Assembly: GCA_964648275.1 (NCBI GenBank)
Contig: CAZYOB010000001.1
Span: 1,443 to 65,442 of the forward strand
Source of the DNA: an uncultured Pseudomonadales bacterium
GTDB lineage: Bacteria > Patescibacteriota > Microgenomatia > UBA1400 > MFAQ01
Length of the DNA: 64,000 nucleotides
Direction: 5' to 3'
In this document: piece by piece, positions 54,397-59,324 of the stretch
How positions within the stretch are numbered: position 1 is the first letter of the stretch
How the letters are laid out: each line of letters begins with the position of its first letter
Position numbers and translations under genes: made by a program
Notes under the pieces: generated by a model
What the model saw: only the letters and a program-made list of their open reading frames with translations
Told to the model about the DNA's origin: nothing
Databases searched by the model: none

Positions 54397-56049
54397 CTAT
54401 ACTTCCACGATGATAGCGATGACCATGGGGCGTCGCTGGGTTTGGTCAAAGGCGAATTTTTCCAGATGAGCTTCGATCTTTTTTCTAATGAATCCCCAGT
54501 CGGTAGCGATACCTTTTTGATCTTTAAGGCATTTATAGACTTCTTTCCGGGCATCGTTTATCAGGTCTTTTGATTCTTTCTGATAGACAAAGCCGCGGGA
54601 GATTATGTCGATATCTCCAGTAACTTGCGAATTGTCTTTTCTAAGAGGTACGATGGCGATCAGAATACCGTCTTCGGCCATGACCTGGCGGTCGCGAAGA
54701 ACAACAGTACCAACGTCACCAATACCTAAACCGTCAACATAGATGTTTTTGGTTTCAAATTTCGGTCCTTCTTTGACGACGTGGTTTTCCAGAAGCACGG
54801 ATTGTCCTTCTGAAAGAACGAATACCTTACCGGGGTCGTAGTTCATATCTTTGGCCAGATCCTTGTAAAGCATCATATGGCGCAAGTCTCCACCGATGGG
54901 GATAATGCTTTTTGGCCTTGTAAGTCTTGCGAGAAGAGCGATATCTCCACGATAGCCATGTCCGGAAACATGAAGATTTTCTGAAGTGCCTGAATAGATA
55001 ACATCGATACTGTTTTTGTACAAAGTATCCATTAGATCAAAAATGTCGGCGTCGTTACCCGTACCGGGAATAGCATTGGAGCTAATGATAACCTTGTCAC
55101 CTTTTTTCAGTCGAACCATCCGGTGCTCGTCGTTTGCTAACCTATGCATTGCTGAACCGGCCTGTCCCTGGGAACCGGAAACAATCAAGGTCACTTGTCC
55201 AGGAGGAAGGGCGGCTACCTGTTGAGGTTTAATGAGAACACCTGGAGGAATTTTCAAAAATCCAGTCTTCAGGGCAGCTTCAATGTTTTGCTCTACGGAA
55301 CGACCAATCACTGCAACACGACGGTGATATTTAACCGAGGCGTCAATGGCAATTTTAAACCTGGAAATTGAAGAAGACATGCCGGTAAAAACAAATTTAC
55401 CGACTGTGTTTCTAACTTCATTATCAATGGCGTTTACCAAGGTCCTTTCCGAGGGACAATAGCCGGATTTCTCGATACCAAGACAGTCAGTGAGTAGCAG
55501 ATCGACGCCGGTAGTTCCAGCAGCGGCCATACCACCAAGGTCCGGTGGCAAATTATCTATTGGGGTTAGATCAAACTTATAGTCGGATCCGTGATAGACA
55601 GTGCCCGCCGGGGTAGTGATATATAGATGATAGGAGTTGGGAACTGAGTGAGTCGAGTGAATTAGCTGAATATGGAAAGGTCCCAGATTCAGCGAACCTT
55701 CAACCGGGGTCAGACGATTGGTTATACCAAACTCGCGGACTCTAATTTCGGCCATTGCTATGGCGAGTTTTCCTCCAAAAACTTGAACGTCTTTAAGGCG
55801 TGGCAGAATATATGGCAGACCTCCGATATGGTCCATGTGAGGATGAGTAAGGACTATGCCTAACAAGTTTTTGCCTGCTTTCTCGAGATAACTGATATCG
55901 GGGATGACCGAGTCAACGCCTAAGGCGCTGTCTTCGGGAAAGCCCATGCCGCAATCGACAACGAGCTGGTCGTCGCCGTATTCATAGACGTACATGTTTT
56001 TTGTAGCCGAACCGACGCCTCCGAGGGGGATGATTTTTAGTGGAATCAT
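54397..56049 (-). CDS. rnj: Ribonuclease J
   Basis: MBL 'HPHMDHIGG' and beta-CASP. I set the start at MIPLKIIPLGG (ATG at 56047-56049). Confidence 0.85.
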   Translation of the reverse strand: MIPLKIIPLGGVGSATKNMYVYEYGDDQLVVDCGMGFPEDSALGVDSVIPDISYLEKAGKNLLGIVLTHPHMDHIGGLPYILPRLKDVQVFGGKLAIAMAEIRVREFGITNRLTPVEGSLNLGPFHIQLIHSTHSVPNSYHLYITTPAGTVYHGSDYKFDLTPIDNLPPDLGGMAAAGTTGVDLLLTDCLGIEKSGYCPSERTLVNAIDNEVRNTVGKFVFTGMSSSISRFKIAIDASVKYHRRVAVIGRSVEQNIEAALKTGFLKIPPGVLIKPQQVAALPPGQVTLIVSGSQGQAGSAMHRLANDEHRMVRLKKGDKVIISSNAIPGTGNDADIFDLMDTLYKNSIDVIYSGTSENLHVSGHGYRGDIALLARLTRPKSIIPIGGDLRHMMLYKDLAKDMNYDPGKVFVLSEGQSVLLENHVVKEGPKFETKNIYVDGLGIGDVGTVVLRDRQVMAEDGILIAIVPLRKDNSQVTGDIDIISRGFVYQKESKDLINDARKEVYKCLKDQKGIATDWGFIRKKIEAHLEKFAFDQTQRRPMVIAIIVEV

Positions 56050-56373
56050 AAAATTTAGATAATAAATGTCTACTGTGATTGTAATCCAATTTGGGAAATT
56101 GTAGACTTTCTGATAATAAATGTCTCCCAAAAGCGTTCTCGTTTTATAGTCGTTTTTAGATCCCTCATTTAGCGACTAATTTGTCTACTGAAACAGGATG
56201 ATGCATGGAAAACACATTTATCGGTGAATCGACCCAGGAACAAGAAGTAACTGAACCATGAACTTGAGGGTGATTATACACGACGGAGGTCAATCAAGCC
56301 AATTATTGTTCGAATTAGGCACAAAGATAAATCAAAGAGTGTGAATTGCTGAGCCTCGTTTATACTATAAAGG

Positions 56374-57735
56374 ATGGAAAAAGAGAGGGCGGTCAGAATT
56401 TTTAATTTGTCAGAAGATGTCTGGCCTTTTATTGAATCAATGGGAGACGAGAGGGCAAAAAGACTGGAAATAGAAGAGAATGCCGACTTGTCCGACCGTG
56501 ATCTGTATTCAATGGCCGAGGAATTTGAATTTACCTTTATCTCACCCAGAGAGATCAGCGCCGAATTCATCGATTATTTCAAGAAATTGTGCATGGTCAG
56601 AGAGCTGGAGATCTTGGTACCGAAGACACATAGCGGTCAACTGTGCGAGGACGCTCTAAATGATAAACGGGTGATGAAAAGATTGGTTGAGCTAGGAAAA
56701 ACCCACAAAAGATTGAGCTTGTCCTCATATTCAACAACGGCAAGTTTTTTGAAATTAGTGGAGAAATTAATAGAGAAGGGAGTGGAAGTAGTCACCCCCG
56801 CAGCACCGGAAGAAGAAAACGCCTGGACAGTCAATTTCTATGGAAGTAAGTCAGGAATCAGACAGCTGACGCAAATAAACGGGGCGATACGGTCTGACCT
56901 CAAAATGCCCAATGGAGTGATCAGTTCAGGGGTCACCGACACAGCAAGGATTGCTGCGAATAAGTATGTTAAAGAAGGCGGAGTGGTAATCAAGGCAAAC
57001 AAAGGTCATTCAGGGATGGGAGTATTGATCTTCCGCAAAGGAGATCTGCCAAAAAAGTACGAGGTATGTGAAAAAAAGATCTTCGATATATTAAAGATGG
57101 ATGCATATTGGGAAAAGTTCCCTGTGGTGGTAGAGTCGCTGGTTGCACCAAATCCCAGAATTGGTGGAGGATTCCCAAACGCAGAATTTTTAATCAAAAA
57201 AAACGGAGAGGTGAAGTTTTTGTATAGCTGTGGAATGAGAGTAGACAGACAGGGTGTTTTTGGAGGAGTTGAAATCAGTGAAGATGTTTTGCCGAAGAGA
57301 GTGGCATCTAGAATAACCGACATTGGTTATTTAATCGGTGAGCAGTATGCCAAGGATGGTTACCGGGGTTTTTATGACGTCGATTTTATTGCCGAGCGGG
57401 GCGGAGAGGTATATGTCAGTGAGTCGAATGTGAGAGTAACCGGAGGAACCCATGTATATCAGGCCGCGATTGAGTTAGCCGGGCGGAATTTTACCAAAAA
57501 ATCCTGTGTACTTTCCGACAATATGTATAAGATCCCGAGAAAGAAAAAATATGCTTTCGGAGAATTGAAAAAATTGATGTCGCCGATCCTATATTCCAGA
57601 AAAACCAAGGAGGGAGTGGTGATCGCGTCGGAAAGTCTGCTTTCCAAGGGAAAATTGGCTTACATCATTATTGGAAAAAACAAACGAAGGGCAGAAATGA
57701 TCGAGGAAGAGATGAAAAAGATATTACTCAAGTGA
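56374..57735 (+). CDS. ATP-grasp domain protein of unknown specificity
   Basis: 'VVIKANKGHSGMGV' (ATP-binding Lys plus Gly loop) and 'VSESNVRVTGGTH' (metal-binding E.N). The ~160-aa N-terminal region is unassigned. Start has an AAAGGA RBS. Confidence 0.55.
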   Translation: MEKERAVRIFNLSEDVWPFIESMGDERAKRLEIEENADLSDRDLYSMAEEFEFTFISPREISAEFIDYFKKLCMVRELEILVPKTHSGQLCEDALNDKRVMKRLVELGKTHKRLSLSSYSTTASFLKLVEKLIEKGVEVVTPAAPEEENAWTVNFYGSKSGIRQLTQINGAIRSDLKMPNGVISSGVTDTARIAANKYVKEGGVVIKANKGHSGMGVLIFRKGDLPKKYEVCEKKIFDILKMDAYWEKFPVVVESLVAPNPRIGGGFPNAEFLIKKNGEVKFLYSCGMRVDRQGVFGGVEISEDVLPKRVASRITDIGYLIGEQYAKDGYRGFYDVDFIAERGGEVYVSESNVRVTGGTHVYQAAIELAGRNFTKKSCVLSDNMYKIPRKKKYAFGELKKLMSPILYSRKTKEGVVIASESLLSKGKLAYIIIGKNKRRAEMIEEEMKKILLK

Positions 57736-58821
57736 TCACCACTTAGGTAAGAATTGTTTGATGTTTTCCTGAGTGAGATGAACAGTGAAAGTCTGGTCGG
57801 TAACTACAAGGAAGGCTACTTTCCTGACAATACCTTCAATAGTGCGGCCAAGGGTACGGATACCTGAGTCATAACCTAAGGGACGGATTATCTGTGGCCA
57901 GAGAGCAGGGTCGATGGTGATGACCGATGGGTCCATACCAGCCTCCCTGAGTGCTTTGGGGAGAAGAAATTCCTGAGCAATGTGGGTTTTCTCGTCGTCG
58001 GTGTATGAGGGCATTTGAATCGGTTCAAGACGGTCCATAACGGCTGTGGCCAGGTTGCCGGTGTTGTTAGCAGTGGCAATGAACAGGACTTCAGACAGAT
58101 CAACCGGGTAATCAATGAAGTGGTCCAAGAAACGATTGTTTTGAGTCGGGTCCAATAGCTCGACTAATACTCCCATAATGTCCATACGAGCTTCTTCGGT
58201 AACACGGTCAATTTCATCCAGAAGGATGATCGGGTTTTTAACTCCAGAATCACAGAGGGCACGAACAACATAACCAGGTTCAGCTTCAATATGAAGTCGG
58301 GACTGACCACGAAGATCTCTGGCGGATCCAAGACCACCGAAAGGAATACGGGCGATAGGCCGACCAAGAGCATCTGAAAGAGCATAGGCAAAGGTAGTTT
58401 TTCCGGTACCAACCAAACCGACGAGACAAATGATAGGTGCTCGAGCGACTCCGAGATTCTTTGAAGATCTAAGCTTCAAGACAGACATGTATTCAATAAT
58501 GCGGTCCTTGACCATGTCCATACCATAATGACTCTTGTCCATTGAGGCGCGAATGGCGGTCAGATCGATGGGTCGCTCCACTCTTTTCGTCCAAGGAACT
58601 TTAATAATCCAGTCCAGATAATGACCAATCTTCTCGAATTCTTCCGAATAGAACCCTTGAGAGAACATGCGCTCGAGACGAGCTATCTGATTCTGAATAT
58701 CTTCTTTCAATTCAGGAGGAATCTCAACCGAGTTGAGCTTGCTGTTTAAGACCTCGAGGTCTCTGGCTGCGGCCGTAGTTGAGGATTTGGCAGGATCGTC
58801 CATTAGATTCATTATAAACAA
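57736..58821 (-). CDS. Lon-family AAA+ ATPase module without protease or LonN domains
   Basis: Tracks Lon closely in 'YLDWIIKVPWTK...DKSHYGMDMVKDRIIEYM'. Walker A GLVGTGKTT, Walker B ILLDEIDRV, sensor 'ATANN'. No Ser-Lys protease domain in the 361 aa. Confidence 0.6.
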   Translation of the reverse strand: MFIMNLMDDPAKSSTTAAARDLEVLNSKLNSVEIPPELKEDIQNQIARLERMFSQGFYSEEFEKIGHYLDWIIKVPWTKRVERPIDLTAIRASMDKSHYGMDMVKDRIIEYMSVLKLRSSKNLGVARAPIICLVGLVGTGKTTFAYALSDALGRPIARIPFGGLGSARDLRGQSRLHIEAEPGYVVRALCDSGVKNPIILLDEIDRVTEEARMDIMGVLVELLDPTQNNRFLDHFIDYPVDLSEVLFIATANNTGNLATAVMDRLEPIQMPSYTDDEKTHIAQEFLLPKALREAGMDPSVITIDPALWPQIIRPLGYDSGIRTLGRTIEGIVRKVAFLVVTDQTFTVHLTQENIKQFLPKW

Positions 58822-58849
58822 AAAAACGGGTAGCTGGGCTACCCGTTCA
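58818..58849 (-). terminator. Rho-independent terminator
   Basis: On the minus strand: AACGGGTAGC-CCA-GCTACCCGTT followed by TTTTTTT. Confidence 0.55.
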
Positions 58850-58883: not shown

Positions 58884-59324
58884 TCAAGGATAATTAGCGA
58901 TCATATACCCGAATCCAAAGAGCAAGATGCCGAAGATTGAGACAAAGATGATACACAAAAACCAATCAGAGGCACTTTGGTGGATTGTGATACTGACTGG
59001 GTTCTCAGAAACAATGTTGTAGTCTGTTCCGAAACCATCTTGAACAGTCCATCGGTTTCCATCCAAACTTCCCTTTCCGGAAAAGTTGTCTCCCGTGATA
59101 GGCTGCCCATCTACATAGGTATTGCCTGAAGAAATTCGAAAATAACCTACTCCGGAGGCAGAGATTTGGTAGGAGTCAGCGCCGGAAACTTCAACCCAAT
59201 CACCCTCTCCGGCCGTAAAATTCAAAAATGTGCCTGCTTGAGTATGCGGATTGAGAGTTAAATAGCAAACAAAGACTGCAGTAAGAACAAGCAGGAAACC
59301 CCAAATGAACAAACCTTTATTCAT
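58884..59324 (-). CDS. Hypothetical bitopic protein (N- and C-terminal TM)
   Basis: Same topology as ORF 32572..33039, with a Gly/Ser-rich ectodomain. Confidence 0.4.
   Translation of the reverse strand: MNKGLFIWGFLLVLTAVFVCYLTLNPHTQAGTFLNFTAGEGDWVEVSGADSYQISASGVGYFRISSGNTYVDGQPITGDNFSGKGSLDGNRWTVQDGFGTDYNIVSENPVSITIHQSASDWFLCIIFVSIFGILLFGFGYMIANYP

What the first reader, a model, noticed from the sequence alone, without database searches (positions are those of the whole stretch)
57736..58821. Stand-alone Lon-family AAA+ module lacking both the LonN and protease domains
The 361-aa protein matches the Lon ATPase module almost motif for motif ('YLDW..K.PW.K', 'HYGM..VK.RI.EY', Walker A/B, sensor-1, Arg finger), but it stops where the Ser-Lys protease domain should begin, and neither neighbouring gene supplies one. 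It could be a Lon-derived chaperone or unfoldase, a partner for a separately encoded protease, or a truncated remnant. Its terminal abutment with the ATP-grasp gene (stop codons separated by 0 nt, with a shared AAGTG-ATCAC-CACTT palindrome) is notable.
Basis: partly seen in the sequence, partly recalled or inferred. Interest (0 to 1): 0.55.

Follow-up and report, generated by a model that had tools for sequence, protein, structure and literature searches.

The report
Protease-less Lon ATPase of Microgenomates bacteria
This gene encodes only the ATP-burning motor of the Lon protease, with no cutting domain and with altered substrate-gripping loops. It is not a broken gene but a strongly conserved, unstudied protein family found across a whole class of ultra-small (CPR) bacteria, where databases usually call it "Lon protease".

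Summary
Window 57736..58803(-) encodes a 355-aa protein; the ORF runs to a TTG at 58821, but homologues and promoter geometry favour the ATG at 58803. It matches only the LonA helical-bundle + AAA+ + lid module (TIGR00763 positions 254-568 of 795; E. coli Lon 252-579). No LonN or S16 domain lies in the 64-kb window.

It is neither a truncation nor a split gene:
- More than 120 protein clusters at 66-99% identity and 66 complete ORFs from other Microgenomatia genomes have the same ~354-aa architecture.
- These proteins form one clade.
- dN/dS is about 0.09.
- None has a Lon N or protease domain within ±10 kb.

The ATPase residues are 99-100% conserved (Walker A/B, sensor-1, Arg finger, sensor-2). 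Both pore loops are rebuilt: Tyr398 becomes His, and Gly400 and Met402 become Glu.

The gene sits in an old rpsO-pnp-X-rnj-ftsK array, or beside groES-groEL in some lineages. It appears to have its own leaderless promoter. The ATP-grasp abutment and 5-bp palindrome are lineage-specific and trivial.

Most likely function: an ATP-driven, non-proteolytic remodeller or chaperone. Whether the same genomes carry a protease partner or a full-length Lon could not be tested.

The parts
57736..58803 (-). CDS of the stand-alone Lon-type AAA+ ATPase. It is 355 aa from ATG 58803, with stop at 57736-57738. The mechanical ORF extends to TTG 58821.
58606..58794 (-). N-terminal three-helix bundle (residues 4-66), equivalent to the LonA NTD-3H segment that precedes the AAA+ fold. 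Y294/W297-equivalent residues are conserved.
   Evidence: AF2 helices 4-24, 30-49 and 52-66; alignment to EcLon 252-300; conservation
58396..58419 (-). Walker A, GLVGTGKT (residues 129-136). The Lys is conserved in 100% of 204 family members.
58273..58311 (-). Remodelled pore loop 1, RGQSRLHIEAEPG (residues 165-177). Canonical Lon has RGHRRTY(V/I)GAMPG. Tyr398 becomes His171, Gly400 becomes Glu and Met402 becomes Glu.
   Evidence: HMMER alignment to 3m6a; role of Y398/I399 from PMC7239648
58207..58227 (-). Walker B, ILLDEID (residues 193-199). Asp-Glu is 100% conserved.
58171..58206 (-). Remodelled pore loop 2, RVTEEARMDIMG (residues 200-211). Canonical Lon has K(L/M)xxD(F/Y/M)RGDPAS.
58063..58077 (-). 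Sensor-1 strand, ATANN (N246 corresponds to EcLon N473).
58024..58035 (-). Arg finger, DRLE (R258 corresponds to EcLon R484). The Arg is 100% conserved.
57739..57999 (-). Lon-type lid (small alpha) domain, with sensor-2 R316 in GIRTLGR (57844-57864). It ends in the family's C-terminal LPKW exactly where the Lon linker to the protease domain would start.
   Evidence: Pfam Lon_lid 293-343
58811..58816 (-). TATAAT -10-like box 7 nt upstream of ATG 58803, with no room for a Shine-Dalgarno sequence. This is probably the gene's own promoter giving a leaderless mRNA. The same geometry is seen in most related loci.
   Evidence: inference; no transcript data
58824..58848 (-). Terminator-like hairpin (11-bp stem, T-run) that ends the inserted upstream gene. 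It separates the AAA+ gene from pnp transcription in this genome.
   Evidence: also present in L089
59512..61674 (-). pnp (PNPase), the conserved upstream member of the array.
54397..56130 (-). rnj (RNase J), the conserved downstream neighbour. The adjacency holds even for family members only 36% identical.
56374..57735 (+). Convergent ATP-grasp gene (Pre-ATP-grasp + PGM1_C). It is a lineage-specific insertion in the variable slot between the AAA+ gene and rnj, and is not part of the system.
58884..59324 (-). Orphan 146-aa membrane-like ORF inserted between pnp and the AAA+ gene. It has no Pfam match and no homologue in any related locus, and is not part of the system.

Best explanation
**Shown**
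- The gene is a genuine, vertically inherited member of a protein family confined to Microgenomatia-type CPR bacteria: Collier-, Shapiro-, Ames-, Levy-, Woese-, Davies-, Roizman-, Gottesman- and Pacebacteria, WWE3 and Dojkabacteria.
- The family consists only of the LonA three-helix bundle, AAA+ alpha/beta domain and lid.
- It has lost the N-terminal substrate-binding domain and the S16 protease domain.
- Every ATP-binding and ATP-hydrolysis residue is kept.
- The two substrate-gripping pore loops are replaced: Tyr-Val/Ile-Gly-Ala-Met becomes His-Leu/Ile-Glu-Ala/Ser-Glu, and the aromatic residue of pore loop 2 becomes Ala.

**Inferred**
- The trans-acting Arg finger is invariant, so the protein should work as a ring oligomer, probably a hexamer, that hydrolyses ATP.
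- It has no peptidase and no aromatic pore loops. It therefore most likely acts as a non-proteolytic, chaperone-like remodeller rather than a degradation machine or a classical threading unfoldase.
- Its acidic pore and overall acidic charge would favour basic client proteins.
- It is probably expressed from its own promoter as a leaderless mRNA, often reading on into rnj.
For: **Architecture.** The AF2 model (pLDDT 86.9) matches Lon AAA+ modules at TM about 0.8.

**A real, conserved family.**
- More than 120 clusters of 351-357 aa at 66-99% identity.
- 66 complete ORFs in other genomes, median 354 aa.
- One pure clade of 87 dereplicated sequences against 64 full-length Lons.
- dN/dS about 0.09 with dS saturated.
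- More conserved than PNPase in 23 of 24 loci, RNase J in 24 of 24 and FtsK in 17 of 24.

**Motifs.** Among 204 members, the Walker A Lys, Walker B Asp-Glu, sensor-1 Asn and Arg finger are 100% conserved, and the sensor-2 Arg 99%. Pore-loop-1 Tyr is 98% in Lon but only 5% here (His 64%). Gly400 is Glu/Asp in 92% and Met402 is Glu in 96%. The roles of these residues are taken from PMC7239648.

**No partner domains nearby.** No LonN or Lon_C was found within ±10 kb in 68 genomes, while 11 control Lon loci were all detected.

**Proteostasis context.** In 8 loci confirmed by ORF clustering, the gene is divergent from groES-groEL; the short contig L041 shows the same upstream sequence.

**Precedent.** LONP1's anti-aggregation activity needs ATP hydrolysis but not proteolysis (PMC8368198 abstract), and LONP1 cooperates with mtHSP70 (PMC7801493).

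**Charge.** Family median pI is 5.9, against 7.9 for Lon AAA modules.
Against: - No experiment exists. Oligomer state, ATPase activity and clients are all inferred.
- In canonical Lon the protease domain helps hold the hexamer together (my own knowledge), so a ring without it is not guaranteed.
- A 2026 preprint attributes LONP1's chaperone-like activity to the N domain, which this protein lacks, and finds it ATPase-independent.
- The most persistent neighbour is RNase J, not a chaperone.
- No CIRCE heat-shock operator was found.
- A conserved C-terminal LP[KQST][WY] could be a docking tail for an unknown partner.
- I could not check the rest of any genome for an S16 peptidase or a full-length Lon.
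Confidence: 0.5

Rival explanations
1. It is the ATPase half of a two-component protease. The ring would dock onto a separately encoded peptidase (an orphan S16 domain, ClpP/HslV-like, or a new one) and feed it substrates.
For:
- The family ends in a conserved LP[KQST][WY]-COOH. It sits exactly where Lon's linker to the protease domain begins and could be a docking tail.
- The ATPase machinery is intact.
Against: - No Lon_C domain lies within ±10 kb in 68 genomes or in the 64-kb window.
- No recurrent peptidase-like neighbour was found. The recurrent neighbours are PNPase, RNase J, UDG, FtsK and GroES/EL.
- Feeding a peptidase requires translocation, yet the pore-loop-1 Tyr/hydrophobic pair and the pore-loop-2 aromatic are lost family-wide.
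- The C-terminal motif is not kept in the more divergent members.
Confidence: 0.2
2. It is an accessory of RNA decay or processing. This would be an ATP-driven remodeller working with RNase J and PNPase, for example stripping basic RNA-binding or ribosomal proteins from RNA. It would take the place that DEAD-box helicases hold in other degradosomes.
For: - RNase J lies downstream on the same strand in 38 of 51 loci with enough flank. Spacers are as short as 8-19 nt, and one case overlaps.
- The adjacency persists in members only 36-52% identical.
- PNPase lies upstream in 32 of 55 loci.
- The acidic pore loops would suit basic clients.
- Lon proteins are known nucleic-acid binders (PDB 6n2i is named 'DNA-binding ATP-dependent protease La').
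Against: - The pnp...rnj...ftsK order also exists in Firmicutes without this gene (my own knowledge of the B. subtilis map), so the adjacency may be frozen synteny.
- The slot between the gene and rnj is an insertion hot spot: UDG, epimerase, ATP-grasp, Nudix and membrane proteins.
- The gene has its own promoter-like box, and here an upstream terminator.
- A whole sub-clade has moved it next to groESL, away from pnp and rnj.
- The protein is acidic, which makes direct RNA binding unlikely.
Confidence: 0.15
3. It is an artefact or remnant: a frameshifted, truncated or split lon gene, or an assembly break at 57736.
For: Only the bare fact that the protein stops where the protease domain should start.
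Against: - The same end point and length occur in more than 180 independent sequences from many assemblies and sequencing projects.
- dN/dS is about 0.09.
- The catalytic residues are invariant.
- The sequence past the stop encodes unrelated genes that differ between genomes.
- No Lon_C remnant appears in any frame.
Confidence: 0.01

Closest known systems
LonA protease (endopeptidase La; MEROPS S16; TIGR00763), e.g. E. coli / Y. pestis Lon, B. subtilis LonA, M. taiwanensis LonA, human LONP1
   Same: - It shares the three-helix bundle + AAA+ alpha/beta + Lon lid, at 33-41% identity and TM about 0.8.
- Walker A/B, sensor-1 N473, Arg finger R484 and sensor-2 R542 equivalents are all kept.
- The Lon-specific scaffold residues Y294, W297, W303, E442, D445, Q448, N449, D454 and H455 are kept.
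   Different: - No LonN domain and no S16 Ser-Lys protease domain.
- Pore-loop-1 Tyr398 is replaced by His/other, Gly400 and Met402 by Glu, and Arg395 by Ser.
- The pore-loop-2 aromatic is replaced by Ala.
- The 'acidic bridge' E447 is not conserved.
- The module is acidic rather than basic.
- It scores half the TIGR00763 cutoff.
Isolated E. coli Lon AAA+ module (PDB 6n2i, a laboratory construct of 344 residues)
   Same: The boundaries are nearly identical: query residues 21-357 (361-aa ORF numbering) align to chain residues 10-338. Foldseek gives TM 0.77-0.80.
   Different: 6n2i is an engineered fragment of a full protease. Here the same fragment is a natural, conserved gene product with changed pore loops.
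LonB, LonC and LonBA subfamilies
   Same: They are Lon-type ATPase relatives, and some lack the LonN domain.
   Different: A review abstract states that all Lons contain an ATPase and a protease domain (PMC9569914). LonB carries a membrane anchor, and LonC has a degenerate ATPase but an active protease (my own knowledge). This family is the reverse case: an intact ATPase and no protease.
AAA+ unfoldases that work without, or have lost, their peptidase (ClpB/Hsp104; ClpX in yeast mitochondria, which lack ClpP; protease-dead FtsHi)
   Same: The concept is the same: a protease-lineage AAA+ motor retained for non-degradative remodelling (my own knowledge; an analogy only).
   Different: Those motors keep aromatic pore loops and thread polypeptides. 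They belong to other AAA+ families. None is a Lon derivative that lost a cis-encoded protease domain.

Membership tests
LonA protease (TIGR00763 / MEROPS S16) | N-terminal LON substrate-binding domain (PF02190) | tested here: not met
   There is no Pfam hit. tblastn with the E. coli and P0175 N domains finds nothing in the window or in 68 related loci, while 11 control loci are positive.
LonA protease (TIGR00763 / MEROPS S16) | Lon-type AAA+ module with Lon_lid | tested here: met
   PF00004 + PF22667; TIGR00763 positions 254-568, E=4.5e-91; PDB Lon chains E about 1e-67; Foldseek TM about 0.8.
LonA protease (TIGR00763 / MEROPS S16) | C-terminal S16 Ser-Lys proteolytic domain (PF05362) | tested here: not met
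   The protein ends at EcLon position ~579-580, which is the linker. There is no Lon_C in any frame of the window or within ±10 kb in 68 genomes.
LonA protease (TIGR00763 / MEROPS S16) | Whole-protein score above NCBIfam curated cutoff | tested here: not met
   306.5 bits against a cutoff of 608 for TIGR00763, and 228.6 against 891 for NF008053.
LonA protease (TIGR00763 / MEROPS S16) | Pore-loop-1 aromatic-hydrophobic pair (Y398/I399) that grips substrate | tested here: not met
   His171 aligns to the Tyr. The position is Tyr in 98% of 64 Lons but in only 5% of 204 family members. The residue's role is from PMC7239648.
AAA+ ATPases, HCLR clade (Lon-type) | Walker A Lys, Walker B Asp-Glu, sensor-1 Asn, trans Arg finger, sensor-2 Arg | tested here: met
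   These residues are 99-100% conserved in 204 sequences, and their coordinates were verified.
AAA+ ATPases, HCLR clade (Lon-type) | Ring oligomer with ATPase activity | not testable with these tools
   This is inferred only from the invariant Arg finger. No multimer prediction or biochemistry was available.
Two-component AAA+ protease (ClpX/ClpP- or HslU/HslV-like) | A partner peptidase gene, usually adjacent or co-conserved | tested here: inconclusive
   There is no peptidase-like recurrent neighbour within ±10 kb. The rest of the genomes could not be read with these tools.
Known anti-phage defence ATPases (PADLOC) | Significant match to a defence-system model | tested here: not met
   Only generic AAA noise was found (best hit 20.5 bits; no matched stretch passes the threshold on its own). 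The context is housekeeping genes.

The most novel reading that the evidence does not exclude
In Microgenomatia the Lon motor may have been repurposed into an ATP-driven ribonucleoprotein remodeller that works with RNase J and PNPase. On this reading its acidic His/Glu pore grips basic RNA-binding or ribosomal proteins and strips them from RNA. That would give these minimal cells a degradosome whose ATPase is a protease-derived AAA+ ring instead of a DEAD-box helicase. It may also be the only Lon-type protein these organisms have, so that the class lacks Lon proteolysis altogether.
Probability: 0.12. Interest if true: 0.8.

Novelty: new variant of a known kind. Interest (0 to 1): 0.55.

Why it matters
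- **Classification.** Lon is described as always carrying its protease in the same chain (PMC9569914 abstract). Here a whole bacterial class keeps only the motor, under strong selection, with the substrate-gripping loops rewritten.
- **A natural experiment.** This is a natural separation-of-function variant. It could show what a Lon ATPase ring does without proteolysis, which is debated for mitochondrial LONP1. It could also show what non-aromatic, acidic pore loops can do in an AAA+ ring.
- **Annotation.** These proteins are deposited as 'Lon protease' or 'ATP-dependent Lon protease'. Surveys of CPR metabolism may therefore credit these organisms with a protease they may not have.

Tried and rejected
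1. **Frameshift, truncation or split gene.** Rejected by comparative data.
2. **Lon N or P domain elsewhere in the window.** tblastn with E. coli Lon found only noise.
3. **Junction palindrome as terminator or regulatory site.** It has a 5-bp stem, is not called by the scan and is not conserved. There is a 7-nt gap in L090, and different genes occupy the site elsewhere.
4. **CIRCE/HrcA operator upstream of the gene or in the groES-LonAAA intergenic regions.** None was found within 4 mismatches at those sites.
5. **C-terminal or N-terminal extensions of longer relatives (P0176, P0146, P0143) as cryptic domains.** They are low-complexity Q/P/S/N tails with no Pfam match.
6. **Defence-system membership.** No PADLOC match.
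7. **Literature.** No paper in the library links Lon with CPR/Patescibacteria or describes a protease-less Lon.
8. **Foldseek against AFDB.** The library was not available.
9. **Genome-wide co-occurrence with Lon_C or full-length Lon.** This was not possible.
10. **That scan hit its row limit.** The closest (Collierbacteria) genomes were therefore not among the 80 loci, and context for them came instead.
Full report
**1. What is in the sequence**

On the minus strand an ORF runs from TTG 58821 to the stop at 57736-57738, 361 codons. Close homologues are 351-357 aa and begin MD..., which corresponds to ATG 58803. A TATAAT box (58811-58816) lies 7 nt upstream of that ATG, and a strong terminator-like hairpin (58824-58848) lies just before it. 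I therefore take the product as 355 aa (57736..58803).

The domain evidence is consistent:
- Pfam finds only AAA (PF00004) and Lon_lid (PF22667).
- NCBIfam's Lon equivalog TIGR00763 matches at E=4.5e-91, but only over model positions 254-568 of 795 and at half the curated cutoff (306 vs 608 bits).
- Solved Lon structures match at E about 1e-67 to 1e-69 over their AAA+ modules only.
- tblastn with E. coli Lon aligns residues 252-579. Neither its N domain nor its protease domain matches anywhere in the 64-kb window.
- An AlphaFold2 model (pLDDT 86.9, pTM 0.81) superposes on Lon/LONP1 AAA+ modules at TM about 0.8. These include 6n2i, the engineered E. coli AAA+ fragment with almost the same boundaries.

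**2. It is a gene family, not a broken gene**

- A search of 5.8 billion proteins returned at least 120 clusters at 66-99% identity. Nearly all are 351-357 aa (a few are fragments or mis-called longer ORFs), and none has Lon_C among its precomputed Pfam domains.
- Their public names are 'Lon protease', 'ATP-dependent Lon protease', 'AAA family ATPase' or 'hypothetical protein'. Most are from Candidatus Collierbacteria and the Microgenomates group, for example KKS32894.1.
- An exhaustive HMMER search of 1.84 billion cluster representatives found further ~350-aa AAA-only representatives at 35-55% identity. The nearest full-length Lons were at 36-41%.
- A scan of GTDB species genomes gave 68 loci from many Microgenomatia lineages plus 11 ordinary Lon loci from other phyla. 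The lineages were Shapiro-, Ames-, Levy-, Woese-, Davies-, Roizman-, Gottesman- and Pacebacteria, WWE3 and Dojkabacteria.
- In those loci, 66 complete ORFs have a median length of 354 aa (range 318-472).
- tblastn with two Lon N domains and three Lon protease domains found nothing within ±10 kb of any of the 68. All 11 controls showed N-AAA-P.
- Longer relatives only carry low-complexity tails.
- In a neighbour-joining tree the 87 dereplicated AAA-only sequences form one pure clade apart from 64 full-length Lons.
- Against relatives, dN is 0.09-0.25 while dS is saturated, giving dN/dS of about 0.09 where it can be computed.
- Across 24 loci that hold the whole array, this protein is more similar to the window's copy (median 50.7%) than PNPase (46.1%), RNase J (38.8%) or FtsK (49.1%).

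Truncation, frameshift, assembly break and split gene are thereby excluded.

**3. What changed besides the domain losses**

I aligned 204 family members with 64 full-length Lons. Residue roles are taken from the Y. pestis Lon cryo-EM paper, PMC7239648.

Conserved:
- Walker A Lys, Walker B Asp-Glu, sensor-1 Asn and the trans Arg finger are 100% conserved. The sensor-2 Arg is 99%.
- Lon-specific scaffold residues Y294, W297, W303, E442, D445, Q448, N449, D454 and H455 are also kept.

Changed:
- Pore-loop-1 Tyr398, which with Ile399 intercalates into the substrate, is Tyr in 98% of Lons but only 5% of the family. There it is His in 64%, and Phe, Ser or other residues in the rest.
- Gly400 is Glu/Asp in 92%, Met402 is Glu in 96%, and Arg395 is Ser in 92%.
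- In pore loop 2 the aromatic position is Ala in 75%, and the Gly-Asp-Pro motif is gone.
- In the window the loop reads RGQSRLHIEAEPG (58273-58311).
- The divergent representatives have ...P-D-A-E-P-G with no aromatic residue.
- The module is also acidic: median pI is 5.9, against 7.9 for Lon AAA modules and 9.1 for E. coli Lon.

So the ATP engine is under strict constraint while the substrate-gripping surface has been re-specified.

**4. Genomic context**

The gene lies in an old array: rpsO - pnp - X - rnj - ftsK - rodZ-like.
- RNase J is downstream on the same strand in 38 of 51 loci with enough flank. In 18 of these it lies within 300 nt, and the shortest spacers are 8-19 nt.
- PNPase is upstream in 32 of 55 loci.
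- The adjacency to RNase J, or the S15-PNPase...X...FtsK order, persists in members only 35-52% identical.

The slot between X and rnj is variable. It holds a family-4 UDG of about 208 aa in some 15 loci, and Nudix, phosphoesterase or membrane proteins in others. An 86% relative carries an epimerase there. The convergent ATP-grasp gene is present only in the window and one 83-84% relative.

The ATP-grasp abutment is therefore a local accident. The AAGTG-N5-CACTT repeat is 5 bp, is not terminator-like, and follows from both reading frames ending in AAG-TG. The 146-aa ORF between pnp and X is likewise unique to this genome.

A second context exists. In 8 Roizmanbacteria-like loci confirmed by ORF clustering, plus the short contig L041 with the same upstream sequence, X is divergent from groES-groEL. 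A conserved TTGTCAAG-N12-14-CTGCTAA promoter-like element lies just before the ATG, and there is no CIRCE.

In most loci of both contexts a -10 box sits 6-7 nt before the start codon with no room for a Shine-Dalgarno sequence. This suggests a dedicated promoter and a leaderless mRNA. That is an inference; there are no transcript data.

**5. How it most likely works**

Shown: the architecture, conservation, motif status and context described above.

Inferred:
- An invariant trans Arg finger implies function as a ring oligomer that hydrolyses ATP.
- Without a peptidase and without aromatic pore loops, it is unlikely to degrade proteins or to thread them in the Lon manner.
- The best-supported reading is a non-proteolytic, ATP-driven remodeller or chaperone (about 0.5).

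Support for that reading:
- There is precedent in LONP1. Its anti-aggregation activity needs ATP hydrolysis but not proteolysis (PMC8368198), and it cooperates with mtHSP70 (PMC7801493). It also associates with Hsp60-mtHsp70 (PMC4669791). I used only the abstracts.
- A sub-clade places the gene next to groESL.

Against that reading:
- A 2026 preprint attributes LONP1's chaperone-like activity to the N domain, which is absent here.
- The Lon protease domain normally stabilises the hexamer (my own knowledge).

Rivals:
- **Two-component protease with an unknown peptidase (about 0.2).** It is favoured by the conserved C-terminal LP[KQST][WY]. It is disfavoured by the lost translocation loops and the absence of any peptidase neighbour.
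- **RNA-decay or RNP-remodelling accessory of RNase J and PNPase (about 0.15).** It is favoured by the deep adjacency. It is disfavoured by the independent promoter, the insertion-prone slot, the relocation to groESL, the acidic charge, and the fact that pnp...rnj...ftsK synteny exists in Firmicutes without this gene (my own knowledge).
- **Artefact (about 0.01).**

**6. Comparison with what is known, and novelty**

The protein works like, and descends from, the LonA ATPase module. It fails the membership test for Lon proteases: no LonN, no S16 domain, a score below the curated cutoffs, and no pore-loop Tyr.
- A review of Lon subfamilies states that all Lons contain both ATPase and protease domains (PMC9569914 abstract).
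- No curated NCBIfam or Pfam family describes the AAA-only form.
- No paper in the searchable library mentions it.

I rate it a new variant of a known kind. The sequences have been public since 2015 (the GW2011 genomes) but are unrecognised and often mis-named.

**7. Limits**

I could not read whole genomes. Whether these organisms also carry a full-length Lon or an orphan S16 peptidase is therefore untested, and this is the decisive next computation. Oligomer state, ATPase activity and clients need experiments.

Noticed in passing
window 58803-58848 (-); related loci L001, L003, L028, L034, L044, L063, L073, L089 and others, immediately upstream of the AAA+ start: An extended -10-like box (TATAAT or TATACT, often preceded by TG) sits 6-7 nt before the ATG with no space for a ribosome-binding site. 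This is seen in the window and in most of the 68 loci, and suggests a conserved leaderless mRNA. The first codons (ATG GAY nnn GCn, giving MD-S/N/D-A) are also unusually conserved.
   Followed up: partly
L030, L033, L037, L041, L043, L047, L050, L058, L062 (intergenic region before the AAA+ gene): In a Roizmanbacteria-like sub-clade the gene is divergent from groES-groEL. It is preceded by a conserved TTGTCAAG-N12-14-CTGCTAA(C/T) element 3-10 nt before the ATG. This could be a promoter or an operator, and it is not a CIRCE element.
   Followed up: partly
L011, L016, L017, L019, L020, L023, L026, L029, L035, L051, L054, L061, L075 (between the AAA+ gene and rnj); L007:1443-2084: A family-4 uracil-DNA glycosylase gene of about 208 aa recurs directly downstream of the AAA+ gene on the same strand. 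In L007 it overlaps the stop codon. L012 and L077 hold a ~221-aa ORF in the same position; the L012 one looks like a family-1 UNG.
   Followed up: partly
proteins P0121-P0134, e.g. P0121, 1675 aa: The highest-scoring representatives in the exhaustive search are 1000-1700-aa proteins matched in two to four stretches. For P0121, Pfam shows three AAA modules followed by Lon_lid and Lon_C. This is an unusual multi-ring Lon architecture of unknown origin.
   Followed up: no
window 56374-57735 (+): A 453-aa ATP-grasp protein with Pre-ATP-grasp and PGM1_C domains, weakly similar to amino-acid ligases (BesA, LdmS). It is found only here and in one close relative (L090, 63% identity), so it is a recent insertion into the pnp-rnj array. 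Its GC content is 43%, against 46% for the window.
   Followed up: partly
window 58884-59324 (-): An orphan 146-aa ORF with hydrophobic N- and C-terminal segments. It has no Pfam, NCBIfam or PADLOC match and no homologue in any fetched locus. It is followed by a strong terminator-like hairpin.
   Followed up: partly
C-terminus of the family (window 57739-57750): More than 110 of 204 family members end in LP[KQST][WY]-COOH (LPKW in 79). This conserved terminal aromatic sits exactly where Lon's linker to the protease domain starts, and could be a docking tail.
   Followed up: no
L010, L013-L015, L021-L023 and many others (record titles); L056; P0051: Many MAG records that carry this CPR-specific gene in a typical CPR gene order are titled 'uncultured Gammaproteobacteria/Pseudomonadales', 'Candidatus Methanoperedens sp.' or 'Spirochaetia bacterium'. 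These labels are probably placeholders or mis-binned taxonomy.
   Followed up: no
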